Sequence record: NC_041906.1
DNA: 64,000 bases
Source of the DNA: Escherichia phage EC1-UPM
Strand: one strand, 5' to 3'
Position 1 is the first letter of the stretch. Each line of letters starts with the position of its first letter. The notes beneath the pieces are model-generated. The model worked only from the letters and a program-made list of their open reading frames with translations. It made no database searches and had not been told where the DNA came from. Below, piece by piece: positions 28,773 through 63,900 of this stretch. The translations under genes were made by a program, and so were the position numbers.

Positions 28773-31700
28773 TTAGTTAGTAAGGTTGAGCCAAGGGTTC
28801 AGGTTATGGGCACGTAAGCCTTGACCGAAACCGAAGGAGTAACCGAGGTTGCCTTGTGCAGCAATACTAAAGATGTTGTCCTGAATAGGTAAACCAACGT
28901 TACCAAACATGGTAGGGGTTGGAGCCAACATAGCCATAGCTGCATGAACCGGGTTATTACGAATCATGGACACTGCAACTTTTGCAGAACGAATCTTAAA
29001 GTTGTAGAACCACATCAGACCAACACTTTCCATATACCCACGGAAGCGACCTGGTAAACGATCATAGTTAATGAACTCTTCCGTTACACGTCCTAGTGCT
29101 TCTTCACGGGTCTTACCTTTACGCTGGGTCAGTTCATCATAGATGATTGCTTTAGCAATGAAGTCAGAGTACTCAACCGTCTTCTGGATACCCTGGAAGA
29201 GAGCAGTATCCTTAGTGATAAGTGCATAACGACCAGCATTACGTACAGACTTAGGCAACTTATCAGCCAGCTTATCCATGTATTCGTGAAGTTTACCTTC
29301 AGTAATCAGGATATCATCACGACCAATACCAGCATCTGCAATTGAAGAGAACTCACCAGCTTCCAGTAGAGGCCAGATACTCAAACGCTTGTGACTATCC
29401 GTGATGGACTGAATCTCAGCCTTCAGCTTACGAATCTGGTTCGGGTTAGTAGCTGCACGTAATTCTGCTTCTGCATCTACCTGACGCAGGCGAGATTTCA
29501 GGTACTGGTTAATCTCAGCAGTCTTCTGTGGAATGCTCTTAGCAATGTTCTTAACAGGTACACCACGAGCAACCATCTGGTAAAGGTTAGCCAGGAAGTT
29601 AACAGCAGGTACGACTACTGACTTAACTACAATCAGGGTCTTAGCTTCTTTAACTAAGTTCTGAACCAGGTTCTCACCACCCATTACATACTTATAGGCA
29701 CGGTTACCGAATACACCCAGCATAGCTTTCTTGAAGGTATCCAGTGTTTCTGGTGACCAACGAGAATTACCAGACCAGGCATCACCAACAGAAGCTGCAC
29801 GATACCCTAAAGCATCATTAAGCATGTCACGACGTACCCACAATTCACCAGGACCAAACAGACTTTCTGCTTTCCGACGGGTTTCACTGTTCATCAGTTT
29901 AAGAGCATCGGCAGTTACTGGGTCCAGTTTAGAATCAAAAAGGTTCACGTACTGGAACTTATTAGAGGCAGACATCTTAAGGTCATTCTCATACATGCTA
30001 TGCAGGTTCTCAATCAGCATATCGTTGAAACGCTGAGCCTTAGCTTCTTCCACCTGACGCCCACGCCATACACCGATTGCACGAGCAAGATGGTTATCAC
30101 CTTCAATGTGCTTCAGCATGTTGGGGTCAATGGATTGCTCGTAAGCAACCACATTACCATTGGCATCATATACAGGCAGCAGTGGTTCATTACCACGTTC
30201 ACCACGAGCCAGTGCTTTAGTAATACGGTCTACAGAAGGCTTGTCAGTGATACGACCTGCTACCATGGTTCCCATCGTAAAGCCTGTTCCGAGGTCTGCA
30301 CCGCCAGCAGTATTGCGAACGTTCTGCAGGATACCCTGAGAGAATGGAGCCTGTGCCTGTACTGGTGCGAAGTAGTAACTGCGTGCTGAACCACGGTTAG
30401 CAGAACTACCCTGATAAGTACCAAGACGTACATAGGACTTCTCAATCAAATCAGCAAACTGACTATCTTCAGCAACAATCAGGTTAACACCTTGTTTGTT
30501 CTCACTAGGGATATACCCTTTGTACTGGTTCAAGGTTGCACGGCTATCAGACTTAGCTTTAGCCATTTCATCTTTACGCTGACCAACCAGGTAAGAAGTA
30601 GCAAAGTCCATGCCTTCAATTTCTGTCTGAGCCAGTGAAGATAACATCTCACGGTCAGTCTTATTCATTGCTTCCAGTGCATACAGGGTAATCAGTTTAT
30701 CCAGCTGAGCTACATCTACGATAGAACTGGTAGTCTTACGTTCACCCAGCAAACGAGAAATTGCTGTAGCATTACGCAGCAGGTTATTACCAACTGTACC
30801 GTTAATCATGTATTGAGCCAGTTGCTTAGATTTACGGCTAATCAGAGGCCAGTTACGTCCGGCTTGCTTCTGCAAATCTGCTTCAAGTTTATTAACCTCA
30901 CGGTCAACAATCTTCTGGTCAGTCAGTAAGTCACGGATTTCATCCAGAGGCATAGTGTCGCGTAGAACAGCTAAGTCAGTTTTACCCATACCGGTATGCA
31001 TTGCTTTCCACTCATCATTAGTCAGTTTACGGCTGAATTTGGATGCAATAGTGGTAGGTAAATGTTCACGGAATTGCTGACGGTCTGCTTGTACCTGTGC
31101 ACGAACTGCCTTAATCAAATCGTATACAGAAGCATTGCTCTTAGTACGACCAATTATGTCATTAACCAGGTCATGGAATGGTTGCCATACTTTACCCTGG
31201 TTCATTGCAGCCATAACACCTTCAGCTACGATTGCACCATTCTTCTCTGTAGCAATAGCAGCTACCAATTGTGCAGCATGAGCAGCACCTTTAACCAACG
31301 GGTTCTTGGTATTAGCTGCAACTTCACGAGCACCTCCCAGAGCACGGGTAGACAGTACATCAATAGAATCCACCAGATACTGGTTAGCACGGTCAATAGC
31401 ATTGCCAGTAGGAGTAGCAACTGAATCATAGAAAGATTGTGCATTAAGGCTGGTCTGCATGATGGTCTGAGCCAGTGCATCCATACCTTCCTGTACGTTA
31501 GAGGCTTTAGTATCGCCTGCTACACGGGCATTCAGACTAGCCATTGCAGCAGTACCAATGTTAGTCAGCATTGCATCAACAGTATTGCCTGATTTCTTAT
31601 CTGCTTTCATAACAGGAATGTCAGCCAGTACCTTACGTACCTCTTCACTTACCATAGCCAGACCAACAAAGGTAGGTAATAAGGAAGAGCGACCTTGAGC

Positions 31701-34700
31701 ATCAAACTCAATGTTGTTAGCACCCATAATGGTATCGAACTTCTGCTGTGCATAATAACGGTCAGCAGGGTTAGTACTATCTGGGTCAGCCATGAATGCT
31801 TCGACGGTCAGGTTCTTAGTAACGTGTGTATAGTATTCCTGTGCACGAGCCATGGCAGCAGGATTAATAGCAGCCTCGGTAGCGAGTGCAGCAACAATGT
31901 TAGTGAAGAGACGTTGTTCCTGCATGTTCATGGTGAAGCCATGAGCCTGAACATCACGAGTTACTTTGGTTGCATTCACTACTGCATCAGAGAACTTACC
32001 TTTACGAATTACTTGCTGTACTGGTTCCGAACCAATGTAGTCAGTAATCAGTTTATCAAAGGTTTTCCCTAACTCTTCCAGACGAGTATTGTTACCGTAT
32101 GCTTTGTTATGGAACAGAGTAGTGTCTTTAGCTACAGCAGCAGTAGGAGCTTGTCCACGCATTACTACAGCAGAGTTAAACAGTAAACCTGAGAACATAT
32201 CATCTGCATTAGCAGGAGCTTTCTTACGACCAAATACCAGACGTTTGATTGCCTCATATACAGCCTGAACCATAGCCTTAAGTGCAGTGGTTTTCTTCTG
32301 CTTACTAATCAATTCTCGGTTGGTTAAACCCCAGGCCATGTACTCGTTCAATGCAGCAGCTTTAGCCATTGCTGGTTCAATGAAGCCATTAGACAAGTGA
32401 CCATTAATGGTATTAAGTGCATCAGCATATGCTTCACGTACTGCCGGAGATTCATCCTTAACATCCAGAGTACGGAACTGGTTCATCAGGTCTTCAATGT
32501 TCTGGACTGCTTCATTAGGAGTACCCTCGTAGTGAGCCAGTACAGATTCAAAAGTAGAAGCATGTACCAATTCATGAACCAGAGTCTCTAAGGAAGGGGT
32601 AACTAAGTAGATGGTTTTATCTTCAAAGTTAGTCCAGCCATATGCATTACCAGCTTCAGCAGCTTCAATATCTTCCGGTGCTGGGCGAGTAATATTCTTC
32701 TCAATGGCGTAGGCATCCAGTTGAGCAGGTGTACCGTAAACAACTTTATAGTCTTTAGCAGCAAGGGATTTCTGTATTTCTTTCAATACTGCTTGCTGTT
32801 CAGGAGACATCTCTTTAGCCAGTTTAGTAATGGCAGTATTAGACAGTAGACGTACACCAGATTTCAGTACACGACCAACCATCTCCATAGCAGGTACTTC
32901 AACCACTGGCACTTCCTTCACTGGTTCTACCTTCGTTGGTTCCGCTTTAGTAGCACGTACTGCTTCACGACGCTTGTTTAGTTCAGCATCAAACAGTTCG
33001 TTCAGCTTAGCTACTTGCTGGTCTACAGTAAGACCTTCCAAAGAAATTTTACCGTTGTTCACATAAGGAGCGCCTACAGCAGCCATCTGGTCAACAGTGA
33101 CCTGTACCTGGTCCATTACCTTGTGACGAATATCTACACCCAAAGCAATGTTACGCAGATTACGCTCAATCAATGCAATACCAGAATCTCTAATCATAGA
33201 AATTTTATAATCTCTATCACCATCTACTCTGGCAATATGAGCACGTTGCTCAAAGTCTAAAGCAGACTTCGCAATAGCATCTATTGCTGCATCGGATAAC
33301 TTATTTAAATCAACATTCTTAGCAAACTTAGAGAAAGACTCATATACATTCTTGATAGGGTTACCCTGCCAGGAAATATATACAGCCTCATTAGCTTTAC
33401 GGCTTGCATCAGTAATGTCATTGATACCAATGTTCATACCATCAAAGATTTTCAGGGTATTCTTCGGAGCACCTTTCATAGTAGAAAGGGTCTGCATCAT
33501 CATGCCATCACCAGTACCGATGGTCATAAATGGAATACCTGCTACACCTGCCTGCGAAGGAGCATAGATGCTCATTGGCACACGCATACGGTCATCTAAG
33601 TTGGTAGCCAGTACCTGGTTAGCAACATCAGTGTTTTCACTGCCAGCAATGTAGAAAGTCTGTGAGCCAGTCTTAATCATTGGAGCCAGAGGAGCTAAGC
33701 TATTCTGAATTTCATTCAGTTCTTTCTGTGTTAAGAAATCACCCTTCTTCCATGTTGGGTCTTTTTCTTTTTCTGCCAGCTTAGCCTGTACTGCTTGTTG
33801 GAACATATCCTGCAATACCAGAGATTGAATCTGAGTAGCCTTCTGCAAATTCTCAGTAGAGTGCATCAACCCCTCACCAACAGTGAACCGGATACCTTGT
33901 CTCATTGGCTCAACAAAGAAGTGCAGCATATTCTCTTGTAAGTTCTTCAGAGAATCCCCGGATACGGTAAACCCCTGGGGATTTAACTCACCAGTCAGAA
34001 CACCATCTACTTCCTTAATAAATAACCTACCTTTGCGTTTGGCTGGAATTTTGCCAGTCAATGCTTCCATAGAAGTAAGGAAGGTATCCAGCATAGCCTG
34101 AGCATCAGCCTCAGACGCAGCCTCCTTACCAAACATCGCCATAGCCGGAGAAATGCTAGGGTCAGCAGCACGTGCTTTCAGAACATCGCTTAGGCGTTCA
34201 TAAATGGAATCAGTAATTGCACTTACCATTTTGCCAGCAATACCACGAGCACCAGAACCATAGATGGTAATGGTCAGTGGGTTTTTGGCGATACCACGTT
34301 TCAGGTCCAGAGTACCATCTTCATTCAAGTTAAAATCTTTGATGAACAAATCCATTAACTTCTGGAGATGGTCTATCTGGTTTATAACAGAAATATCCTT
34401 ACTATAAGCATTGCGTAATTCATTTAGATAGAATTGCAGACTATTAGTAGATGCTTCATACAGGTCAACATCGTCTTCCTGAGTATGATGCTCATTCATA
34501 GTCTTACCAGCTTTACCAAAGAACAAACCACCTTTAGCAGTATTCTTAATCCAGTTTGAAGTGAACTTACCTCCAGTCATTAATACCATTGCGTTGATTG
34601 GACCGTTGGTTACACCATCAGCTTCAACGTACAAAGGAGTATTAAAGTTGGCACGGTCATCACTGTTCAGGTAACGGGCATATTCCATAAGAGCCATGAG

Positions 34701-37700
34701 AGCTACAAAGGATTTATCATTACCAAGAGATGTTCTCAGGATATCCACTGCATCAGTTGGTAAGTATCCAGACTTATCAAACTCAACCATCATATCTACA
34801 GCAGGCTTCAGCTTACCTTCCAGAGCTTTGGTAAGTTCTTCTGACATAGTTTCACGGGTCATTTTATGAACTTTGATACCCAATGCCTGAGCCAGTCCAA
34901 GCTGGAAGCCTGAAAAATCTTCGTTGTTCTGGTTCGATAAATCCAGGGTAGCTTTGGTAGGTAAGATAGCCTCACGAACCAGCTTAGCTGATTGGGGGGT
35001 ATATTTACCTAACATCTGCATACGACCAACACGGGTCATATTGTAAGCATAGTGGATAGGTACAGAAGAAATGTCTTTACTCTGTGCTCTTACCTGTTCA
35101 ATAACAGAGAACAATTGGTTATAAGAGTCTTCTACTGAACGGTTCTTACCTTCCAGCGATTTAGCGTGGTTCTCGTTAAGTAATTCTTTATTCAGAGTAC
35201 CAGCACCCATCAGTTCGAGGATACGGTCTTTACCTAATGCCTCATAGAACTGAACCATTGGGGTATGTACAAAGAACTCTGTATCCTGTTCTGCTTTAAG
35301 AGCAGCTTTCTGTTCTGGAGTATTACGAACAGCAGGGTTACGTAACTGTGTATGAGCCACGGAAGGAATATCATCACCCAGATACAATTTCTCTGCTGGT
35401 TCTAAGAGTACAGCCTCCTCGATAGCAGTAGGATAATTATTAATTGCATCATTATCTTCTAACTTATCAATGGTATACAGACCAATCGTCTTATTGGATT
35501 CTGGGTCAATCTCAGACACATCCAGCATAGACTCTTTAACTTCACCCATCTCAATGAAAGAAGACAGAATCTCTGTAGCCATTGCCACTGGGATACCCTT
35601 GGTATAACCAAGTGGTGCATCGGCATTACGGTTAAGCCCCCAGTAAGACTCAATCTTTTGAGCCAGTGAGTTAGTAGCTTCAACCAGGGTCTGAGCATTC
35701 TCGAAGTCAGCCAGAATACCTTCTGGTAACAAAGACTCATTTACACCAGTAATAGCAGCTACGTCTTTCATGTCTTTAATGGCAGCATTCTGTGTAGCAG
35801 TAAGTCGCCATTGCAGACCAGCAAGTACAGCAGTCTCTAACAACTGGTCATTGAACTTAAAGGTATCACCATCTTTTTCTACGATGTTAAGTAACTTACC
35901 ACCCACCCAACGGTTAGCCTCAGTCCCTTCTGCAAAACGTTTACCAACGTTCTTGTTAGCAAGGAACTTAGCCAGACGGTCAGACAGGGTAGTCTTCAGA
36001 GTTTCACCGAAATCAAATAAGTCCTGATAACGCTTAATCACATCACTTGTGAGAGCGTTATTTTCTTTTTGAGTGAATGCTTCAAAGCGAGCAACGGAAG
36101 ACAATGCTTTCTTAACATCAGTCAAAGGAGACTCGGAACCAATGGTACGAGACTTAGGTTCTTCTGGTAGAGAAAATGCTTTAAGGAACTGGTTCGGTGT
36201 CTTGTCATTGTTATAGACAGGGAACACTGTTTCCATTTGAGATAGAGGTTTACCACCAACGGTATAGTCTGCTTTCAGTTGAGCCAGAGATACTTCTTCC
36301 TTCTCAACGTTATTAGTGTTACGCCCAGACGTATCTACACCAACCTGAATCAGTGCATTGTTTGCTTCTACAAATGATTGAACAGTATTAAATTGTTCAG
36401 GAGTTAGTTTCTGATTATCAAATAGTTGTAAAGATACAAATGGTTGTTCACTGCCTTTGTAGAAGGTAGAGCGAATAGCACCAGTATCTAGTGACATATC
36501 TCGATAACCATCGTGTCCAAATACATCAGACAGACTGATGTGGTCGCCATTGGAACCAACAACAGTACCATCAGCAAATAACCATGGACTCTCCCTACGA
36601 TCACCATACTTATTAAGAGTATCTTGAGAAATGGTATTCTCTTTTACATAAGCATCCTGTTCAGATTCAGTAGGTTGCTCGATGGTATCCTCATTAGTGA
36701 GGGTAGCATCCTGTTTTTCAGACTGATTCTCAGGTTCTTTTACAGGCTGTGGTTTAGACTCTTTAGTAGTGGGTTCTGTTTTAACAGCTTCACTAACAGA
36801 GGGTTTAGTCTGTACAGTAGGGGTAACTGGTTCCTGTTTTGTAACAGGAGTTTCATCAACCTGATTCACTGGTTCACTAGTCTGTTGGGATTGAGCAGCA
36901 TCAAGATTGCCCTGACGGAACTCTTTAACTACCTGGGCAGCAGGCTTGTCTAGACGTGAATCCAATGGGGTAACTTTAACATGAGAAACATTAAGCTCCG
37001 GGTAAGCCGTAGCAAGTGCGTTAGCAATATCAGCTACGGTCTTGGCTTCCAGTCCTACTTGCTGGGCAAACTTAACCGACTTGGTATCATACGGATTGAC
37101 ACCGAGGCCAGTACGACTACGTACCCATTCACGCGAAGGAGTAAGAGCCTGATAATGGACAGACTTATTCTTATCCGCATTCCCAGAAATCAGATGCTCA
37201 TTCAACGCTCCGACCTTATTCTGCATGTGCTGGGCGAACTTCATAAAGTCGTCGAGATAAGCGGAAGCCAAATCGAAGTTACCAGAGTTGTACGCAGAAC
37301 GAATGCGTTTAGCATGTTGCAACGCAGAGTACTGGCCTTCATTAGAACGAGACTCGTCGGTTTTAATTTGTTTACTAACAATGTCCTGAGGACGTAAGCC
37401 TAGTTCTTCTGCTTTAGCGTCAAATTCTCGTGCTCCTTGCAATAGAGCAGCAGCAGATTGCAGGGCAGCACGCTGACGATTCCCTAGCGTAATCTTACCT
37501 TCACTTGCATGTTTCAGAACCATGTTCACTGAGTCTGCATCCAGTACTTCTGGAGACATATCAGCAGCCATAGCAATGTTGTTTGCCTGGGCTTGGTTAG
37601 CTTCTTCAGTAGCCTTCAGTTTACCTGCTTCAGCCTGTTCCTGAATCATGGAATGAATAGCACGGAATGCACGGAGTACCTTCGGTGTATTCTGAACGTT

Positions 37701-39629
37701 AGCCATCAGGCCAGAGAACTGGTCTACGATTGCAGCAGCAGGAGAACCTTGTTCCAGATTAGCCAGAGCACCTGGGTCACGGTTAATGAAGCTATCCATA
37801 GACATGATGTTGTCATACATCTGGATTGCAGCTTCCATTTGAACGTTAGGGTCTTCAGCAGTATTAACCAGGTCAGCCATTTTCTGAATAGCTTCAACAC
37901 GGTTAGTGGAACCAGAAACAGCTTCACGGATTGCAGGACTAGCTTGTTCTAGTTCTACTGGGTCAAACTTCATTGCCTGAGTTAAGTCAGCAGCATACTG
38001 AGTAGCAGCAGCTTTCTCTTCAGGAGAAATATCCATTGCATCTACTGCTTCCTGAACAGTTGCTTGTGCTTGTTCTGCCTGAGCAGTAGCTTCTTGTGCA
38101 GCAGCGTTAACTGTAGCGTCTGATACGGGAGATGCTTGTTCATTACGCTTAGCTACTTCTTCCCCACGTTGAACCAGAATGTTAGTAATAGGAGAAGCTA
38201 CTTTTGCTAGTGCCTTACCAGCCAGAGAAGCACCAGCCAGGGTAGTACGTACAGCAGGACCAACGGCAGCACCAGCAGCCTTAACAGTTGCACCAGGAGC
38301 TTGAGCAACTCCAGCAGAACCAAAGCCATACAACGCACCAAGACCAGTTTGTTCACCCACACCTTTAAGCAATTCACGATTAGCATCTACATTACCTTGA
38401 ATTGCTTTGTTCTGTGCAAACTGACTTGTACCAGACTGGATACCTTCTTCCACAGTTTCACGGAGCATGTTAGAACCAGCACCGGCCAGTGAACCTACCT
38501 TGAGTGGGTTAAGTTCAAACTTAGATACCAGTGGACCAGTAATAGCAGCAACCGGAGCAGTTAAGCCAGCAGCAGTGATACCTGTTTCAGATGCAGTCTG
38601 ACGTCGTGCCTCTTCAGGAGTTAAGCCGTCTTTAATATGCTGTTGGTATACTGGGGATTTAGCAGCCAGTTCACTGAATGGCATTTCCATAATTTCATTG
38701 GCAGTCTGTTGGTATGCACCACCAGCTTCCATACCACCAATTGCTATAGCAGGTGCAGCAACACGACCAGTAGCTAATGCAGTACGTGCAGGACGTGAAC
38801 CTAATTCAGCAGCTAAGGTAATACCCTTAACAGCTTTATCTCCACCTACCATTACTTTACCTAGTGCAGATACACCACGAATTAATGGGCCACCGGTAAA
38901 GAGAGAACCAACACCCTCAGCCAGACCATCTGTAGCAGCCATGCCATTAGATAAGGTGTTAGCAACAGAATCATAAGCATCACGACCGATACGAGACAGG
39001 GAAGCAACGAGTTCACTTTCTCCTTTATCAATATCCTGCTTATAGAGTTTCTCATTTTCCTGTGCAGATATTACGTTCTGGTTCTGTACTACATTACGAC
39101 GAGCATTCAATGCATCAGACTGTAGGTTGTGTACACCTTTATTCAACCAGTCAAGACCGGAAGCAATGGATGCCCCGGCATTATCATTGACCAAGCCTGT
39201 GCCAAGAGCAGCAATGCCCCCGAGGGTATTAGCAACACCAAGACCAACACCAGAAAGGGTATCACCAAGTGCTTCACCATATGTACGACTCTTAGTTAAA
39301 TCACGACGAACAGCATTAGCTGCATTGACACGAGCATTGAGAATATCCATTCCTTGCTCATTGCCATATTTATTTATGATTTCGAGAGGAGAGGCATTAG
39401 TAAAATCTGCCTGAATAGAACCTGGGTCAAATGCACCAGCACCTAAGTTACCAGCACGACCTGCCTGTAATTGGTAAGCGTTCTGTGGAGTTAATTGGAA
39501 AGGGTTTTGCCCTTGTTCAGCTTGTTTCCGAGAGGTTGCAGTAGAGACATCGACTTGCTTAGCAGTAGTGATGCTGTCTGCGAAACCTGCCAGACGGTCA
39601 AATGTTGACATAGCATGATTCCTGTTCAA
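28773..39629 (-). CDS. virion-encapsidated RNA polymerase (N4 gp50-like giant vRNAP)
   Basis: 3618-aa ORF; contains T7-like single-subunit RNAP motif A (EADGVTNGPINAM, cf. T7 DGSCSGIQHFSAM) and motif B (RGIAKNPLTITIYGSG = RxxxKxxxxxxxYG); size and position match the N4 virion RNAP. Confidence 0.85.
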   Translation of the reverse strand: MNRNHAMSTFDRLAGFADSITTAKQVDVSTATSRKQAEQGQNPFQLTPQNAYQLQAGRAGNLGAGAFDPGSIQADFTNASPLEIINKYGNEQGMDILNARVNAANAVRRDLTKSRTYGEALGDTLSGVGLGVANTLGGIAALGTGLVNDNAGASIASGLDWLNKGVHNLQSDALNARRNVVQNQNVISAQENEKLYKQDIDKGESELVASLSRIGRDAYDSVANTLSNGMAATDGLAEGVGSLFTGGPLIRGVSALGKVMVGGDKAVKGITLAAELGSRPARTALATGRVAAPAIAIGGMEAGGAYQQTANEIMEMPFSELAAKSPVYQQHIKDGLTPEEARRQTASETGITAAGLTAPVAAITGPLVSKFELNPLKVGSLAGAGSNMLRETVEEGIQSGTSQFAQNKAIQGNVDANRELLKGVGEQTGLGALYGFGSAGVAQAPGATVKAAGAAVGPAVRTTLAGASLAGKALAKVASPITNILVQRGEEVAKRNEQASPVSDATVNAAAQEATAQAEQAQATVQEAVDAMDISPEEKAAATQYAADLTQAMKFDPVELEQASPAIREAVSGSTNRVEAIQKMADLVNTAEDPNVQMEAAIQMYDNIMSMDSFINRDPGALANLEQGSPAAAIVDQFSGLMANVQNTPKVLRAFRAIHSMIQEQAEAGKLKATEEANQAQANNIAMAADMSPEVLDADSVNMVLKHASEGKITLGNRQRAALQSAAALLQGAREFDAKAEELGLRPQDIVSKQIKTDESRSNEGQYSALQHAKRIRSAYNSGNFDLASAYLDDFMKFAQHMQNKVGALNEHLISGNADKNKSVHYQALTPSREWVRSRTGLGVNPYDTKSVKFAQQVGLEAKTVADIANALATAYPELNVSHVKVTPLDSRLDKPAAQVVKEFRQGNLDAAQSQQTSEPVNQVDETPVTKQEPVTPTVQTKPSVSEAVKTEPTTKESKPQPVKEPENQSEKQDATLTNEDTIEQPTESEQDAYVKENTISQDTLNKYGDRRESPWLFADGTVVGSNGDHISLSDVFGHDGYRDMSLDTGAIRSTFYKGSEQPFVSLQLFDNQKLTPEQFNTVQSFVEANNALIQVGVDTSGRNTNNVEKEEVSLAQLKADYTVGGKPLSQMETVFPVYNNDKTPNQFLKAFSLPEEPKSRTIGSESPLTDVKKALSSVARFEAFTQKENNALTSDVIKRYQDLFDFGETLKTTLSDRLAKFLANKNVGKRFAEGTEANRWVGGKLLNIVEKDGDTFKFNDQLLETAVLAGLQWRLTATQNAAIKDMKDVAAITGVNESLLPEGILADFENAQTLVEATNSLAQKIESYWGLNRNADAPLGYTKGIPVAMATEILSSFIEMGEVKESMLDVSEIDPESNKTIGLYTIDKLEDNDAINNYPTAIEEAVLLEPAEKLYLGDDIPSVAHTQLRNPAVRNTPEQKAALKAEQDTEFFVHTPMVQFYEALGKDRILELMGAGTLNKELLNENHAKSLEGKNRSVEDSYNQLFSVIEQVRAQSKDISSVPIHYAYNMTRVGRMQMLGKYTPQSAKLVREAILPTKATLDLSNQNNEDFSGFQLGLAQALGIKVHKMTRETMSEELTKALEGKLKPAVDMMVEFDKSGYLPTDAVDILRTSLGNDKSFVALMALMEYARYLNSDDRANFNTPLYVEADGVTNGPINAMVLMTGGKFTSNWIKNTAKGGLFFGKAGKTMNEHHTQEDDVDLYEASTNSLQFYLNELRNAYSKDISVINQIDHLQKLMDLFIKDFNLNEDGTLDLKRGIAKNPLTITIYGSGARGIAGKMVSAITDSIYERLSDVLKARAADPSISPAMAMFGKEAASEADAQAMLDTFLTSMEALTGKIPAKRKGRLFIKEVDGVLTGELNPQGFTVSGDSLKNLQENMLHFFVEPMRQGIRFTVGEGLMHSTENLQKATQIQSLVLQDMFQQAVQAKLAEKEKDPTWKKGDFLTQKELNEIQNSLAPLAPMIKTGSQTFYIAGSENTDVANQVLATNLDDRMRVPMSIYAPSQAGVAGIPFMTIGTGDGMMMQTLSTMKGAPKNTLKIFDGMNIGINDITDASRKANEAVYISWQGNPIKNVYESFSKFAKNVDLNKLSDAAIDAIAKSALDFEQRAHIARVDGDRDYKISMIRDSGIALIERNLRNIALGVDIRHKVMDQVQVTVDQMAAVGAPYVNNGKISLEGLTVDQQVAKLNELFDAELNKRREAVRATKAEPTKVEPVKEVPVVEVPAMEMVGRVLKSGVRLLSNTAITKLAKEMSPEQQAVLKEIQKSLAAKDYKVVYGTPAQLDAYAIEKNITRPAPEDIEAAEAGNAYGWTNFEDKTIYLVTPSLETLVHELVHASTFESVLAHYEGTPNEAVQNIEDLMNQFRTLDVKDESPAVREAYADALNTINGHLSNGFIEPAMAKAAALNEYMAWGLTNRELISKQKKTTALKAMVQAVYEAIKRLVFGRKKAPANADDMFSGLLFNSAVVMRGQAPTAAVAKDTTLFHNKAYGNNTRLEELGKTFDKLITDYIGSEPVQQVIRKGKFSDAVVNATKVTRDVQAHGFTMNMQEQRLFTNIVAALATEAAINPAAMARAQEYYTHVTKNLTVEAFMADPDSTNPADRYYAQQKFDTIMGANNIEFDAQGRSSLLPTFVGLAMVSEEVRKVLADIPVMKADKKSGNTVDAMLTNIGTAAMASLNARVAGDTKASNVQEGMDALAQTIMQTSLNAQSFYDSVATPTGNAIDRANQYLVDSIDVLSTRALGGAREVAANTKNPLVKGAAHAAQLVAAIATEKNGAIVAEGVMAAMNQGKVWQPFHDLVNDIIGRTKSNASVYDLIKAVRAQVQADRQQFREHLPTTIASKFSRKLTNDEWKAMHTGMGKTDLAVLRDTMPLDEIRDLLTDQKIVDREVNKLEADLQKQAGRNWPLISRKSKQLAQYMINGTVGNNLLRNATAISRLLGERKTTSSIVDVAQLDKLITLYALEAMNKTDREMLSSLAQTEIEGMDFATSYLVGQRKDEMAKAKSDSRATLNQYKGYIPSENKQGVNLIVAEDSQFADLIEKSYVRLGTYQGSSANRGSARSYYFAPVQAQAPFSQGILQNVRNTAGGADLGTGFTMGTMVAGRITDKPSVDRITKALARGERGNEPLLPVYDANGNVVAYEQSIDPNMLKHIEGDNHLARAIGVWRGRQVEEAKAQRFNDMLIENLHSMYENDLKMSASNKFQYVNLFDSKLDPVTADALKLMNSETRRKAESLFGPGELWVRRDMLNDALGYRAASVGDAWSGNSRWSPETLDTFKKAMLGVFGNRAYKYVMGGENLVQNLVKEAKTLIVVKSVVVPAVNFLANLYQMVARGVPVKNIAKSIPQKTAEINQYLKSRLRQVDAEAELRAATNPNQIRKLKAEIQSITDSHKRLSIWPLLEAGEFSSIADAGIGRDDILITEGKLHEYMDKLADKLPKSVRNAGRYALITKDTALFQGIQKTVEYSDFIAKAIIYDELTQRKGKTREEALGRVTEEFINYDRLPGRFRGYMESVGLMWFYNFKIRSAKVAVSMIRNNPVHAAMAMLAPTPTMFGNVGLPIQDNIFSIAAQGNLGYSFGFGQGLRAHNLNPWLNLTN

Positions 39630-61584: not shown

Positions 61585-61755
61585 ACTTATCTCGCTACAA
61601 AGTTATGTCTATTAAAGAAGATTCTTTTCTTGGGGTGAGTTACCCCTTGAAGAAACGATATCATACAGTTACACTTTAGTCATGATATAGAAAAAGTTCA
61701 TGATACTATATAGTATGTAATGTTCCGATGACCCTATTCCCAAAAGGAGTAACCT
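61585..61755. promoter_or_regulatory. divergent intergenic control region between the late (-) operon and the early (+) small-gene array
   Basis: 171 nt AT-rich non-coding DNA with a GGGGT-gagtt-ACCCC hairpin and direct repeats of TCATGATA; genes diverge from both sides. Confidence 0.35.
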
Positions 61756-62046
61756 TTGAGAGTTTATATGAGAGTCCACGACTCTAAAGATGAATACAAA
61801 GAGCTAGACCACACCAAGGCTGGTATTCTTTCAGATGATATTATCATTACGCATGATGAAGATACCTATCACGAATTAGCTGGGATGATGTTGTTAGAGA
61901 ATCGTCCGGGCATTAAAATATTAGAACCAAGAGAAACTTACTCTTTAGAAAAGAGATTATCAGCTCTTGTGTTCTTCACAAAATTACCTCATAGTGTCTC
62001 CGTCAGGCGAAGCAAAGACAGTGTTCGGATGACGGTGATGATGTGA
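61756..62046 (+). CDS. small early protein, paralog family member 1
   Basis: 96 aa; TTG start with AAGGAG RBS; contains the family motif IIITHDEDTYHELAGMMLL. Confidence 0.4.
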   Translation: MRVYMRVHDSKDEYKELDHTKAGILSDDIIITHDEDTYHELAGMMLLENRPGIKILEPRETYSLEKRLSALVFFTKLPHSVSVRRSKDSVRMTVMM

Positions 62047-62246
62047 TTAGTCATGTCGCCTAGTAGACAGTGGCGGTACTCGTAAAGAGTTAATAACTTC
62101 TACAGTCAGGGTTGCCCGGCTCCTTTCCTACCTAGTAGGCTAACGATACACATGTATCTAGGGTGATGAACTGACCCGTGATAGAAAACGGTAAGGGGTA
62201 GAGTCGAGAGGCTCTACCCCATTTCTTTTTCAGGAGGTATGCAATT

Positions 62247-62645
62247 ATGAGCATCTACGCTTTTGATATTGATATTACCGGAGTACTTCGTAAGCAGGAG
62301 CCTTACTACCTTGAGGAACCAGACGTAGTAAGTAAGATGTTATCCCCAAGACAATCAGTATTCTTTCCTGATTGCGTGGAATCACACGAGATTATTGGTT
62401 CTTTTTTCCTATCCAACCTGCAACTTAACACTGAGATACTTACTGAACCAAAGGTGTATGATCTTACTGAGTACTCTGACTTCGAAACATTCTTCCCAGG
62501 AATCAGATTCTATAAAGTACCTGGTTGGGAAATGATTGTTGAACATAACCTCTTTAATAAAACACTTTCTGTTTACTTCAGACGTACCCATAAAGGAAGG
62601 AAAATCAATCATGAAATTCATAATGACCATCCCCAGTTTTGCTGA
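62247..62645 (+). CDS. small early protein, paralog family member 2
   Basis: 132 aa; motif VFFPDCVESHEIIGSFFL. Confidence 0.4.
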   Translation: MSIYAFDIDITGVLRKQEPYYLEEPDVVSKMLSPRQSVFFPDCVESHEIIGSFFLSNLQLNTEILTEPKVYDLTEYSDFETFFPGIRFYKVPGWEMIVEHNLFNKTLSVYFRRTHKGRKINHEIHNDHPQFC

Positions 62646-62925
62646 AAGAGAACCTATGTATACAACTGACTTCTCTTTAGAAGAAGTCATGGGCAGCAAT
62701 CCTCATCAAGTAATCCTGGTTCCTACCCTAGAAGACTACCATGAAGTAAGGGGTCAACTCTTCCTAGCAGGTAATGACCGTAAGGTTGTATGTATTATTC
62801 CACCTTCTGTATATACCAACCATAACGCCAATGACCCTATCCCATTCATGATGGTATCTGATGACTATCAATGGGATAGTCGTTATGAGAAGGGTGAATC
62901 CCGTTACTACTATGTAAGGAAGTAA
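62611..62925 (+). CDS. small early protein, paralog family member 3
   Basis: Internal ATG with AAGGAAGG RBS (ORF track start 62536 overlaps upstream gene); motif ILVPTLEDYHEVRGQLFL. Confidence 0.4.
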   Translation: MKFIMTIPSFAEREPMYTTDFSLEEVMGSNPHQVILVPTLEDYHEVRGQLFLAGNDRKVVCIIPPSVYTNHNANDPIPFMMVSDDYQWDSRYEKGESRYYYVRK

Positions 62926-62928
62926 AAT

Positions 62929-63252
62929 ATGCACTTCTACTCATTAATTGCACTAAGTGCAAGCTGTTATCTCAGTATTGTAACTAAACAGGATTTTTTA
63001 AATGGTAAGCTGAATGGAGCTACTGTCCTATATGAGCCTGGCGAAGAAGCTGATGAGTTTATAGGTACATGCCTTATGTTAGGCATACCCATCACTTTCA
63101 CTAAGATAGATACATCAGTTGAGATATCTGAATTTGCAAGGGTGTATATCCTATCAACTGCTGAACCTATGGTAGTAACTACTTTAACAGGTAGACTTAT
63201 TACCCTCTACCCTTCTACCCCATATTTATCTAGCGACGAGTGTGCCTTATGA
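62929..63252 (+). CDS. small early protein, paralog family member 4 (divergent)
   Basis: 107 aa; weaker version of the motif (VLYEPGEEADEFIGTCLML). Confidence 0.35.
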   Translation: MHFYSLIALSASCYLSIVTKQDFLNGKLNGATVLYEPGEEADEFIGTCLMLGIPITFTKIDTSVEISEFARVYILSTAEPMVVTTLTGRLITLYPSTPYLSSDECAL

Positions 63253-63587
63253 ATAGAGTACTATATCTTCATCAGTATAAGGATGAAGTCTCTGTTTACT
63301 CCGATAATGTTGATAAAGCTATTGAGTGGTTACTACCCCAAGACTGTCATATGCTTATGCTACCTGGTGAGTTAGCAGATAGTACCCGTGGTTCCATTCT
63401 TCTCCTCAATAGTCCAGCTAAGCTAACCACCCATAATCCAGGGGAATCCATAAAGATACCTGCTGGTGAATCTGCATTCTTGTTCTTTGAACCAAGGATA
63501 GAAGAAGGGTTTGTCGGGCTTACTATAGACAGTAGACCTAATAAAGACTTTAAAAGGGTAAGGATTATATCTCATGAAACTTACTAA
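63240..63587 (+). CDS. small early protein, paralog family member 5 (divergent)
   Basis: 115 aa; weaker version of the motif (LMLPGELADSTRGSILLL). Confidence 0.35.
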   Translation: MCLMNRVLYLHQYKDEVSVYSDNVDKAIEWLLPQDCHMLMLPGELADSTRGSILLLNSPAKLTTHNPGESIKIPAGESAFLFFEPRIEEGFVGLTIDSRPNKDFKRVRIISHETY

Positions 63588-63900
63588 GATAGGTTATGCT
63601 GGTGGGCCTAACCCCACTAAACATACAACCTTACAAGACCTTGTACCAGGCAGGCTCACTACTATTATCCTAGTACCGGATGAACAAACACTACACGAAG
63701 TAAAAGGATTAGCACTAATACTAGGTAAGAAGGTTATTGTAAAATTACAGGAACCAGGAAAAGAATTACCATGGCCCTCTTCCATGTACTCCTCCTGGCA
63801 TGTGAATACGGATAAGTACACTCTTACCTTCACCACGAGTGATTCCTTCCAATCACCACATTTGGTATATGCTCCCTCCTATTTATCTGCTTATAAGTAA
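63574..63900 (+). CDS. small early protein, paralog family member 6
   Basis: 108 aa; motif IILVPDEQTLHEVKGLALIL, closest to member 3. Confidence 0.4.
   Translation: MKLTKIGYAGGPNPTKHTTLQDLVPGRLTTIILVPDEQTLHEVKGLALILGKKVIVKLQEPGKELPWPSSMYSSWHVNTDKYTLTFTTSDSFQSPHLVYAPSYLSAYK

What the first reader, a model, noticed from the sequence alone, without database searches (positions are those of the whole stretch)
61756..63900. Tandem array of six small paralogous early genes
Six consecutive + strand ORFs of about 96-132 aa share a recognisable core: hydrophobic triplet, Pro/Thr, acidic residues, then H-E-[VIL]-x-G followed by a hydrophobic LxL stretch. Examples are IIITHDEDTYHELAGMMLL, VFFPDCVESHEIIGSFFL, ILVPTLEDYHEVRGQLFL and IILVPDEQTLHEVKGLALIL, with two more divergent copies (VLYEPGEEADEFIGTCLML, LMLPGELADSTRGSILLL). 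A diversifying array at the position where N4-like phages carry host-takeover genes suggests a rapidly evolving host-interaction or anti-defence family. I do not recognise the family.
Basis: seen in the sequence. Interest (0 to 1): 0.65.

Follow-up and report, generated by a model that had tools for sequence, protein, structure and literature searches.

The report
Fast-evolving paralogous gene array, N4-like phage
Six small neighbouring genes at the right end of an N4-like coliphage genome are real, fast-evolving copies of one protein fold found only in this phage family, but they are not "early" genes, and a conserved, undescribed structured RNA with a terminator separates the first gene from the rest.

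Summary
The six + strand ORFs and the quoted motifs are present. The window is a G7C-like (Gamaleyavirus) N4-like phage. o1 and o2 are orthologues of N4 gp70 and gp71, o3 and o4 of G7C gp71.1 and gp71.2, and o5 and o6 are extra copies. Profile comparisons link o1, o2, o3 and o6 (E 1e-4 to 1e-7) and link o4 to o5 (3e-4). The link between the two groups is weak by sequence (2e-3), but AlphaFold models of o1 and o4 have the same order of secondary-structure elements and share Foldseek neighbours. The fold has no convincing PDB, Pfam or NCBIfam match, and the family is confined to Schitoviridae. The genes are under purifying selection, but dN/dS is about ten times that of neighbouring gp69. Copy number varies from 4 to 8, through recombination at a short junction motif. 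The "early/host-takeover position" reading is not supported. The array lies after the terminase genes at the right genome end and has no virion-RNA-polymerase hairpin promoter. Function is untested; I infer non-enzymatic binding proteins that adapt the phage to its host. Between o1 and o2 lies a roughly 180-nt structured RNA ending in a terminator, conserved across genera and absent from Rfam.

The parts
61627..61652 (.). Conserved palindromic motif TTCTTGGGGTGAGTTACCCCTTGAAG in the divergent gp69/o1 intergenic region. It may be a promoter or regulatory element.
   Evidence: Nearly invariant among Gamaleyaviruses and conserved in N4. It has exactly one other copy in the window, at 26153-26177, with 0 expected by chance.
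61756..62046 (+). o1, 96 aa, orthologue of N4 gp70. It is the family member conserved across Enquatrovirinae and Rothmandenesvirinae.
   Evidence: tblastn hits N4 gp70 at 2e-9, and also KP8, JWAlpha and inbricus. PHROG 7213. AlphaFold pLDDT 85.8. dN/dS 0.25.
62055..62230 (+). Conserved structured RNA element. P1 62055-62077; P2 62078-62090; UAAUAAC 62091-62097; CUCCUUU 62120-62126; P4 62127-62139; P5 62145-62158; GGGUGAUGAACUGACCC 62161-62177; intrinsic terminator 62195-62220 with a U-run to 62230 that abuts the o2 Shine-Dalgarno sequence.
   Evidence: More conserved than the flanking genes. Hairpins are kept by compensatory changes across six or more genera. Terminator scan. MFE z-score -3.4. 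No Rfam match.
62247..62645 (+). o2, 132 aa, orthologue of N4 gp71 and G7C gp71.
   Evidence: BLASTP to N4 gp71 at 7e-9. PHROG 9160. G7C annotation. dN/dS 0.21.
62611..62925 (+). o3, 104 aa, orthologue of G7C gp71.1. It overlaps the end of o2 by 35 nt.
   Evidence: PHROG 11661 matched over positions 1-104 of 104. hhalign to F6 at 3.3e-6 and to F2 at 1.5e-5.
62929..63252 (+). o4, 107 aa, orthologue of G7C gp71.2.
   Evidence: PHROG 12099. AlphaFold pLDDT 71, with the same order of elements as o1. Shares Foldseek neighbours with o1.
63249..63587 (+). o5, 112 aa. Its start overlaps the o4 stop (ATGA). It belongs to the variable part of the array.
   Evidence: PHROG 12606. Aligns end to end with family F4; hhalign 2.9e-4. 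Absent from G7C.
63574..63900 (+). o6, 108 aa, last gene before the right terminal repeat. It belongs to the variable part of the array.
   Evidence: PHROG 16338. hhalign to F1 at 1.3e-7. 134 close relatives, all on phage contigs of about 72 kb.
63215..63231 (+). Junction motif CTACCCCATATTTATCT at the 3' end of o4, a recombination site for gain and loss of modules.
   Evidence: Direct repeat with 63872-63888. In G7C the o4 orthologue is fused at this point to the right flank of the array.
63872..63888 (+). Junction motif CTCCCTCCTATTTATCT at the 3' end of o6. It encodes the PSYLSAYK tail.
   Evidence: The same right flank, and the same ...PSYL(S/T)AYK* tail, is fused in frame to F4 (G7C), F5 (U1G), F7 (St11Ph5) and F6 (window, PhAPEC7).

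Best explanation
The six ORFs are real, tightly packed genes at the right end of a G7C-like N4-like phage genome. They comprise the orthologues of N4 gp70 and gp71 plus lineage-specific extra copies.

Shown. They belong to one small alpha/beta fold family with the element order b1-b2-b3-a1-b4 to b8; the [H]E-x-x-G motif lies on the single helix. The family is confined to Schitoviridae and has no significant match to any known family or any convincing match to a solved structure. It evolves much faster than its neighbours, though under purifying selection. Copies are gained and lost by recombination at a conserved motif of about 17-20 bp at the gene ends. The genes are not transcribed from virion-RNA-polymerase early promoters. 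o1 is separated from o2-o6 by a conserved structured RNA that ends in a strong intrinsic terminator abutting the o2 ribosome-binding site.

Inferred. No residue typical of a catalytic site is conserved across the paralogues or across the gp70 orthologues. The proteins are therefore most likely non-enzymatic binding modules. Each copy would bind a different partner, either a host factor or a defence component, and so tune the phage to its hosts. Expression of o2-o6 would depend on read-through of the terminator, modulated by the leader RNA. gp70 would be the conserved founder gene and the downstream copies an expandable accessory set.
For: Identity and position.

Paralogy.

Fold: the o1 model has pLDDT 85.8 and the o4 model pLDDT 71 with the same order of elements. 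In Foldseek against BFVD, the o1 model hits proteins of family F4 (A0A6G5Y1F6), F5 (IME11, 113 aa), F6 (PhAPEC7, 108 aa) and N4-type gp71 (OLB145, 121 aa), as well as KP8 and Achromobacter phage array proteins. The o4 model hits largely the same set.

Restricted distribution: only 18 representatives among 1.84 billion proteins, and about 100 phage records, all Enquatrovirinae or Rothmandenesvirinae.

Fast evolution.

Copy-number variation and junction recombination.

No early promoters.

Terminator and structured RNA.

No conserved catalytic residues: H39 and E40 vary among gp70 orthologues and are absent in o4 and o5.

In the N4-like phage LUZ7, the right-end small ORFans are covered by middle-stage transcripts (PMC9163698).
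Against: No functional data exist for any member; I found nothing on N4 gp70 or gp71 function in the held literature.

Mean dN/dS is below 1, so positive selection is not shown.

gp70 is conserved with fixed synteny across two subfamilies. That fits a core phage function better than a host-specific accessory role.

The time of expression is unknown for this phage. LUZ7 belongs to a different genus and lacks this family.

The sequence link between o4/o5 and the other four is weak (E = 0.0018).

The o4 model is of only moderate confidence, and o2, o3, o5 and o6 were not modelled directly.
Confidence: 0.45

Rival explanations
1. The proteins are phage-internal regulators tied to the conserved RNA. 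gp70, and perhaps its paralogues, would bind the structured leader or 3'UTR RNA. They would act as antiterminators, RNA chaperones or translational regulators and set the level of the downstream operon or of other phage transcripts.
For: gp70, the structured RNA, a terminator and the array occur in that order in every genus examined: N4, Gamaleyavirus, Jgk1, KP8, JWAlpha, Axy10/12/13/24 and inbricus. The 5' domain of the RNA shows 74% mean column identity across subfamilies whose gp70 proteins share only about 30% identity. The RNA contains an anti-Shine-Dalgarno-like CUCCUU and a UGAUGA...CUGA motif.
Against: The proteins are mostly mildly acidic, with median pI 4.7-6.2 in five of the six families represented in the window and no basic patch evident in the sequence. 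They have no known RNA-binding domain. Co-location may only mean that the RNA is the 3'UTR of gp70.
Confidence: 0.2
2. The proteins are accessory factors for genome-end biology, namely replication initiation, concatemer processing or packaging. They would be encoded beside the terminase genes and the terminal repeat that they act on.
For: The array lies between the gp68/gp69 terminase module and the right terminal repeat in all genomes examined. gp70 is conserved across two subfamilies.
Against: Core replication and packaging factors are not normally variable in copy number or dispensable, yet G7C has 4 copies and PhAPEC7 and Moonfish have 8. They also do not normally evolve with dN/dS ten times that of the adjacent gp69. 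The proteins have no DNA-binding signature.
Confidence: 0.1
3. There are two unrelated families rather than one. o1, o2, o3 and o6 would be true paralogues. o4 and o5 would be a separate family whose 'EP-G-E-x-A-D-x-x-x-G-x-x-L-L' stretch resembles the other motif by convergence or chance.
For: The sequence link between the groups is only E = 0.0018, probability 15%. The superfamily profile did not recover F4 or F5 in the representative search. o4 and o5 lack the His of the HE motif.
Against: The alignments are in register over 48 columns, and controls are at least ten times worse. Independent AlphaFold models of o1 and o4, built from separate alignments, give the same nine-element order at nearly the same positions. 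The two models share Foldseek neighbours, and the o1 model hits an F4 protein (probability 1.0, TM 0.58) and an F5 protein (TM 0.55).
Confidence: 0.12
4. The six genes are early host-takeover genes expressed immediately after infection, like the left-end early genes of N4.
For: They have the same orientation as the early genes. In a concatemer or a circularly permuted record they lie directly upstream of the early region. They are small ORFans.
Against: They lie at the right genome end, after the late terminase genes. There is no virion-RNA-polymerase hairpin promoter anywhere in the window, while 2-3 clear copies lie just beyond the array in related genomes. From my own knowledge of N4 (not tested here), the right end enters the cell last. 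A strong terminator precedes o2.
Confidence: 0.08

Closest known systems
N4 gp70 and gp71, and G7C gp70, gp71, gp71.1 and gp71.2 (uncharacterised right-end ORFs; PHROGs 7213, 9160, 11661, 12099, 12606, 16338)
   Same: o1-o4 are direct orthologues with the same synteny after gp68/gp69 and before the terminal repeat. All are annotated as hypothetical proteins of unknown function.
   Different: The databases treat them as six unrelated families. Here they prove to be one fold family. The window carries two further copies, o5 and o6, that G7C and N4 lack.
Right-end cluster of 29 small ORFans (gp87-gp115) of the N4-like Pseudomonas phage LUZ7 (PMC9163698)
   Same: It is a block of small genes of unknown function at the right genome end of a Schitoviridae phage, on the same strand as the early and middle genes. 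It is covered by middle-stage transcripts.
   Different: No homology was detected: the gp70 family was found only in Enquatrovirinae and Rothmandenesvirinae. Paralogy within the LUZ7 cluster is not reported in the passages I read. Timing has not been measured for Gamaleyaviruses.
Terminator-based cis-regulatory leaders (riboswitches and protein- or RNA-dependent attenuators)
   Same: The anatomy matches: a conserved, multi-hairpin domain of about 140 nt is followed by an intrinsic terminator placed directly before the Shine-Dalgarno sequence of the downstream operon.
   Different: It matches none of the 4,227 Rfam families. No ligand, no conserved alternative antiterminator pairing and no regulation has been demonstrated. 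It could equally be the 3'UTR of gp70 or an sRNA derived from it.
C-terminal RecA-like domain of SF2 (DEAD-box) helicases
   Different: The scores are in the range of chance or generic alpha/beta similarity. The model has one helix and eight strands. There are no helicase motifs and no sequence similarity. It is not a member.

Membership tests
N4 gp70/gp71 right-end gene set | Sequence homology to N4 gp70 and gp71 | tested here: met
   o1 against N4 gp70: tblastn 2e-9 and BLASTP 2e-22 in the local set. o2 against N4 gp71: 7e-9. Family HMMs hit N4 at 5e-41 and 5e-45, but N4 was included in those alignments.
N4 gp70/gp71 right-end gene set | Synteny: rightward genes after gp68 (TerL) and gp69, before the right terminal repeat | tested here: met
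   The same order is seen in KP8, JWAlpha, inbricus and the Axy phages.
Single paralogous superfamily of all six ORFs | Significant profile-profile similarity linking every member | tested here: inconclusive
   o1, o2, o3 and o6 are linked at 1e-4 to 1e-7, and o4 to o5 at 3e-4. The two groups are linked only at 1.8e-3, against controls of 0.02-0.6.
Single paralogous superfamily of all six ORFs | Common three-dimensional fold | tested here: met
   The o1 and o4 models have the same order and positions of elements. The Foldseek neighbour lists overlap, and the o1 model hits F2, F4, F5 and F6 proteins. o2, o3, o5 and o6 themselves were not modelled, and the models could not be superposed directly.
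N4-type early genes (transcribed by the virion RNA polymerase) | Preceded by a vRNAP hairpin promoter (5-7 bp stem, 3-nt loop, then the start site) | tested here: not met
   The motif NNNNN-TCC-NNNNN-N4-5-GGA with a perfect 5-bp stem has 0 hits on either strand of the 64-kb window. It has 2-3 hits per related genome, all to the right of the array. The promoter consensus was recalled from memory and then confirmed by its recurrence in the left-end regions.
N4-type early genes (transcribed by the virion RNA polymerase) | Located in the left-end region that enters the cell first | tested here: not met
   In records that start at the left end, the array occupies the last roughly 2.5 kb before the right terminal repeat: E20 69.3-71.4 of 71.7 kb, N4 69.0-70.1 of 70.2 kb, G7C 70.2-71.7 of 72.9 kb.
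Known defence or anti-defence protein families | Match to a curated model | tested here: not met
   PADLOC, NCBIfam and Pfam gave no significant hit. The PHROG matches are all 'unknown function'. No dedicated anti-defence library was available, so this test is incomplete.
Cupin (considered from the motif G-x-x-L-L ... P-G-E-S-I-x-I-P-x-G) | All-beta jelly-roll, with the motif residues on strands | tested here: not met
   In both AlphaFold models the motif lies on the single alpha-helix: residues 35-47 of o1 and 39-51 of o4. There is no cupin hit in Pfam.
SF2 helicase RecA-like domain | Helicase sequence motifs and a strong structural match | tested here: not met
Intrinsic (Rho-independent) terminator, 62195-62230 | GC-rich hairpin followed by a U-run | tested here: met
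   The stem has 11 bp (7 G-C), the loop 4 nt, and ATTTCTTTTT follows. The stem sequence changes with compensation in Jgk1, L013, N4, KP8, JWAlpha, Axy12 and Axy10. Terminators are annotated at this position in PhAPEC7 and JWAlpha.
Described RNA families (Rfam 15), for the o1-o2 intergenic element | Covariance-model match | tested here: not met
   No hit at E <= 1 within the element, in the window region or in seven loci from other genera (that search's only hit, Thermales-rpoB at E = 0.89 in Jgk1, lies upstream of the gp70 homologue). ARAGORN finds no tRNA or tmRNA.
Riboswitch- or attenuator-type leader | Ligand- or factor-dependent switch between terminator and antiterminator | not testable with these tools
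   Only the anatomy is shown: a conserved structured domain, a terminator and the Shine-Dalgarno sequence. Possible pairings between CUCCUU and the 5' arm of the terminator were seen by eye but are not consistent across genera.

The most novel reading that the evidence does not exclude
The element of about 180 nt between gp70 and gp71 (window 62055-62230) is a previously undescribed class of structured phage RNA, shared by two Schitoviridae subfamilies that infect Escherichia, Klebsiella, Achromobacter and Pseudomonas. It would work as a terminator-based switch, responding to a ligand, a protein or gp70 itself. The switch would gate expression of an expandable array of proteins with a new fold, that is, a dedicated regulatory RNA for a phage accessory-gene cassette. 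Alternatively it is a 3'UTR-derived sRNA whose anti-Shine-Dalgarno-like CUCCUU targets mRNAs.
Probability: 0.35. Interest if true: 0.75.

Novelty: new member of a known kind. Interest (0 to 1): 0.5.

Why it matters
N4-like phages are widely isolated and are used in phage-therapy collections, yet the right-end genes gp70-72 have never been explained.

Six 'unrelated' hypothetical families turn out to be one fold family unique to this virus family. The family combines a conserved founder gene (gp70), a variable tail of copies and a defined recombination motif. This converts a set of ORFans into a tractable system for studying how a lytic phage diversifies accessory proteins.

The results correct the assumption that these genes are early host-takeover genes.

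The RNA between gp70 and gp71 is conserved by compensatory changes and ends in a terminator. It is a concrete candidate for a new phage regulatory RNA and can be tested directly with northern blots, TSS mapping and reporter fusions.

Tried and rejected
1. Cupin idea. The o5 stretch 'NPGESIKIPAGESAFLF' looked cupin-like. I rejected it because both AlphaFold models put the core motif on a helix and Pfam shows nothing.

2. Catalytic DExH or metal-site idea for D-E-x-x-x-H-E. I rejected it because the His and Glu are not conserved among gp70 orthologues or in o4 and o5.

3. The 5-bp, 3-nt-loop hairpin P4 (62127-62139) as a vRNAP promoter. The loop is TCC in some relatives but CTA or CCA, or 4 nt long, in others. 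The stem and downstream bases do not fit the consensus found in the left-end regions. I read it as an RNA hairpin instead.

4. Hammerhead, known riboswitch or tRNA-like identity for the RNA. Rfam and ARAGORN gave nothing.

5. A DNA-pattern scan of viral contigs for the RNA motif returned N4, KP8 and one KP8 relative, plus six false positives.

6. The search for related loci with a diverse gp70 alignment failed because no stretch was conserved enough. With o1 alone it gave only 9 loci.

7. The afdb50 fold library was unavailable.

8. I did not build a covariance model. MAFFT puts the variable-length P2 arms in inconsistent columns. I counted covariation for P2, P4, P5 and the terminator by script instead, and for P1 with the tool.

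9. A search for a shared promoter motif upstream of o1 by k-mer matching was mostly noise, apart from the palindrome at 26153. The sigma-70 scan found no promoter-like site between gp69 and o1.

10. Searches for literature on N4 gp70 or gp71 function found nothing relevant.
Full report
What the window is. The 2.5 kb around the finding match 57 phage records at 83-91% DNA identity. Nearly all are Escherichia or Shigella phages, and those with a taxonomy line are classified in the genus Gamaleyavirus (G7C-like N4-like phages, Schitoviridae). In records that begin at the left genome end, the matching stretch is the last roughly 2.5 kb before the right terminal repeat. Examples are E20 at 69.3-71.4 of 71.7 kb and G7C at 70.2-71.7 of 72.9 kb. 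It lies immediately after the leftward late genes gp67, gp68 (large terminase) and gp69. N4 has the same layout: gp68 and gp69 point leftward, and gp70, gp71 and gp72 point rightward.

The observation. All six + strand ORFs are present, and the six quoted peptide strings are in their translations. Ribosome-binding sites, comparison with relatives and PHROG profile coverage refine the gene models as follows.
- o1: 61756-62046. Its TTG start reproduces the conserved N-terminus MR[LV][FY] of N4 gp70, so many GenBank records start it four codons late.
- o2: 62247-62645.
- o3: 62611-62925, 104 aa.
- o4: 62929-63252.
- o5: 63249-63587.
- o6: 63574-63900.

The genes from o2 to o6 overlap or are separated by at most 3 nt, as in an operon. 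The exception is a 200-nt gap between o1 and o2. All six families show pairwise dN/dS of 0.16-0.26 among Gamaleyaviruses, so they are real protein-coding genes.

Are they paralogues? Pairwise BLASTP links o1-o6 (2e-4), o2-o3 (5e-5) and o3-o6 (1e-4). Against 38,880 PHROG profiles, each protein hits its own 'unknown function' family. In addition, o1 hits o6's family (1e-4), and o3 hits o6's family (8e-3) and, more weakly, o2's family (0.14).

I collected the arrays of 19 related genomes, clustered their proteins and compared family alignments. hhalign gives F1-F6 1.3e-7, F3-F6 3.3e-6, F2-F3 1.5e-5, F2-F6 1.1e-4 and F4-F5 2.9e-4. Comparisons with unrelated neighbouring families score 0.05 or worse. 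Family HMMs cross-hit in the same pattern. F4 and F5 align end to end.

The merged profile of F1, F2, F3 and F6 matches the merged F4+F5 profile at E = 0.0018 over 48 in-register columns. Reversed-sequence and unrelated-family controls score 0.02-0.6. By sequence, then, four copies are clearly homologous, o4 and o5 are homologous to each other, and the bridge between the two groups is only suggestive.

Structure closes most of that gap. An AlphaFold model of o1 was built on 100 relatives. It has pLDDT 85.8 and pTM 0.75, with strands at 2-6, 14-18 and 29-31, a helix at 35-47, and strands at 54-56, 61-66, 72-74, 80-85 and 90-95. The o4 model came from a separate alignment that contained no F1, F2, F3 or F6 sequence. 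It has pLDDT 71 and shows the same elements at almost the same positions. In both models the [H]E-x-x-G motif sits on the single helix.

In Foldseek against BFVD, the o1 model hits the following:
- gp70 homologues of Achromobacter phages (TM 0.82-0.87);
- a PhAPEC7 protein of 108 aa, which by its unique length is the F6 gene;
- an IME11 protein of 113 aa (F5);
- A0A6G5Y1F6, which is 65% identical to o4 (F4), with probability 1.0 and TM 0.58;
- an OLB145 protein of 121 aa, the length of N4 gp71;
- several KP8 array proteins.

The o4 model hits largely the same list. I could not superpose the two models directly, and I did not model o2, o3, o5 or o6.

A profile search of 1.84 billion representative proteins found only 18 representatives, all of the gp70, gp71, gp71.1 or o6 types. 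Among 50,697 phage records, gp70 homologues occur in about 100. All are phages of Escherichia/Shigella, Klebsiella, Achromobacter or Pseudomonas syringae, and those whose records I opened belong to Enquatrovirinae or Rothmandenesvirinae. The His and Glu of the motif vary among gp70 orthologues and are absent from o4 and o5. What is conserved is a hydrophobic strand, a Pro/Glu helix cap, a Gly within the helix and hydrophobic positions. That is a structural signature, not a catalytic one. Most of the proteins are mildly acidic and soluble.

Evolutionary behaviour. Among Gamaleyaviruses the adjacent TerL and gp69 are about 98% identical. By comparison, o1 is 60-96%, o2 73-83%, o3 74-90% and o4 56-90% identical. 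gp69 has dN/dS 0.025, and the array families have 0.16-0.26, with a dS that is also 1.7-2.9 times higher.

The array has a constant part, F1-F2-F3-F4, and a variable part:
- nothing in G7C;
- F5-F6 in the window;
- F5-F7-F5' in IME11;
- F7-F5'-F6'-F6 in PhAPEC7;
- up to eight genes in Moonfish.

KP8 has its own mix of families. F7 is an unrelated protein with an HExxH motif.

Whatever its family, the last gene of the array ends in ...PSYL(S/T)AYK*. The DNA shows why. A motif CCYTCYWCC..TATTTAWCT occurs at the 3' end of o4 (63215-63231) and of o6 (63872-63888). The identical right flank is fused in frame at this motif to F4 in G7C, F5 in U1G, F7 in St11Ph5 and F6 in the window and PhAPEC7. Modules are therefore gained and lost by recombination at this short repeat.

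Not early genes. The left-end regions of related genomes are visible in circularly permuted contigs just to the right of the array. They carry 2-3 copies of a hairpin with a 5-bp stem and a TCC loop, followed after 4-5 nt by GGA, for example CATGC-TCC-GCATG-TTATGGA. This fits the N4 virion-RNA-polymerase promoter as I recall it. The motif is absent from both strands of the whole 64-kb window, including the array. The array is thus outside the vRNAP early units and at the genome end opposite to the early region.

The expression class cannot be determined from sequence. The sigma-70 scan found no promoter-like site between gp69 and o1. In the distantly related phage LUZ7, the right-end ORFans are covered by middle-stage transcripts. 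Upstream of o1 lies a 26-nt palindromic motif (61627-61652). It is almost invariant among Gamaleyaviruses, conserved in N4, and present at only one other place in the window, 26153-26177. Its role is unknown.

The gap between o1 and o2. This stretch of about 200 nt is more conserved than the genes around it. It ends in a strong intrinsic terminator at 62195-62220, followed by a U-run that touches the o2 Shine-Dalgarno sequence.

I compared the window with phiG17, Jgk1, L013, N4, KP8, JWAlpha, Axy12, Axy10 and inbricus. Five hairpins occur in the same order and are kept by compensatory changes:
- P1: GUCGCC/GGCGGU, CCCGCC/GGCGGG, CCCCC/GGGGG or CUCCC/GGGAG, with an 11-12-nt loop of the form YAG...RGU.
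- P2: seven different helices in nine sequences, with large insertions in its loop in KP8, Jgk1 and L013.
- P4.
- P5.
- The terminator.

Between them lie conserved single-stranded motifs: UAAUAAC, an anti-Shine-Dalgarno-like CUCCUU, and UGAUGA...CUGA. The 5' domain has 74% mean column identity across subfamilies whose gp70 proteins share only about 30% identity. P1 is 100% paired, with two pairs changed on both sides. G-U pairs in P1 and in the terminator point to the + strand RNA. The minimum-free-energy z-score is -3.4. No Rfam family, tRNA or tmRNA matches the element.

The order gp70, RNA, terminator, array, terminal repeat holds in every genus examined. The element is either a cis-acting leader that gates read-through into o2-o6, or the 3'UTR of gp70, possibly giving rise to an sRNA. 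I could not find an antiterminator pairing that is consistent across genera.

Most likely mechanism.

Shown: one Schitoviridae-specific fold family; a conserved founder gene (gp70) plus a variable, recombining tail of copies; fast protein evolution under overall purifying selection; no early promoters; and a terminator-capped structured RNA ahead of o2.

Inferred: the proteins are non-enzymatic binding modules whose partners differ between copies. The partners would be host factors or defence components, so the array tunes the phage to its hosts, and its expression depends on terminator read-through.

The main rivals are an RNA-linked regulatory role for gp70 and its copies, and a role in genome-end replication or packaging. 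The strict conservation of gp70 favours some core role for that member at least.

Novelty. The genes are already deposited as hypothetical proteins, N4 gp70 and gp71 among them. What appears to be new is their common fold and origin, the recombination motif, the correction of their temporal class, and the structured RNA. I found nothing on any of these in the held literature. I rate the finding itself as a new member of a known kind, namely phage accessory multigene families, and of moderate interest. The RNA element is the most novel lead.

Noticed in passing
window 62055-62230 (+): A conserved structured RNA lies between o1 and o2. Five hairpins are kept by compensatory changes across Gamaleyavirus, N4, KP8, Achromobacter and Pseudomonas phages. 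It has the conserved motifs UAAUAAC, CUCCUU and UGAUGA..CUGA, ends in an intrinsic terminator that abuts the o2 Shine-Dalgarno sequence, and has no Rfam match.
   Followed up: partly
window 61627-61652 and 26153-26177 (+): The palindromic motif TTCTTGGG-N6-10-CC-N0-2-TTGAAG occurs exactly twice in 64 kb, with 0 expected. One copy lies in the gp69/o1 divergent intergenic region and is conserved in N4. The other lies after a terminator-like hairpin in a non-coding stretch of about 490 nt (350 nt of it downstream of the motif). It may mark a promoter class.
   Followed up: partly
window 63215-63231 and 63872-63888; L004 3150-3200; L016 6380-6420; L014 6130-6165: A short junction motif at the 3' ends of array genes acts as a recombination breakpoint. 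The last gene of the array ends in ...PSYL(S/T)AYK* whichever family it belongs to.
   Followed up: yes
L018 5489-5803, L014 5832-6161, L022 5616-5948 (not in the window): A seventh array family (F7; for example PhAPEC7_79 and KP8 gp065) is unrelated to the others. It carries an HExxH motif (LVHELNHF), so it may be a small zinc-metallopeptidase-like protein inserted among the paralogues.
   Followed up: no
window 61756-61768: o1 most likely starts at TTG 61756. The conserved MR[LV][FY] N-terminus, the preceding AAGGAG, and strand b1 of the model all support this. Many GenBank records annotate the ATG four codons downstream, giving 92 aa.
   Followed up: partly
L005 6948, 7568, 7838; L009 6874, 7681, 7937; L004 3347, 4054 (and other loci): Clear early-promoter hairpins of the virion RNA polymerase (5-bp stem, TCC loop, TTAYGGA) lie in the terminal repeat and left-end region. 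The first is about 150-300 bp to the right of the end of the array. None occurs in the window.
   Followed up: yes
L013 5020-5250: In one diverged relative the array is reduced to gp70, the RNA, a truncated gp71.1-like ORF of about 40 aa (similar to the N-terminus of P0374) and F7. This looks like gene decay within the array.
   Followed up: no
P0160, P0179, P0341: Proteins 84-85% identical to o1, and a member of o4's family (F4), are recorded on a 2.76-Mb 'Enterococcus faecium' NCBI contig. An E. coli phage there probably reflects contamination or a chimeric assembly.
   Followed up: no
window 28773-39629 (-): A 3,618-aa ORF, the size of the virion RNA polymerase, lies on the - strand. The cumulative GC skew turns at about 28 kb, where gene orientation switches.
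   Followed up: no
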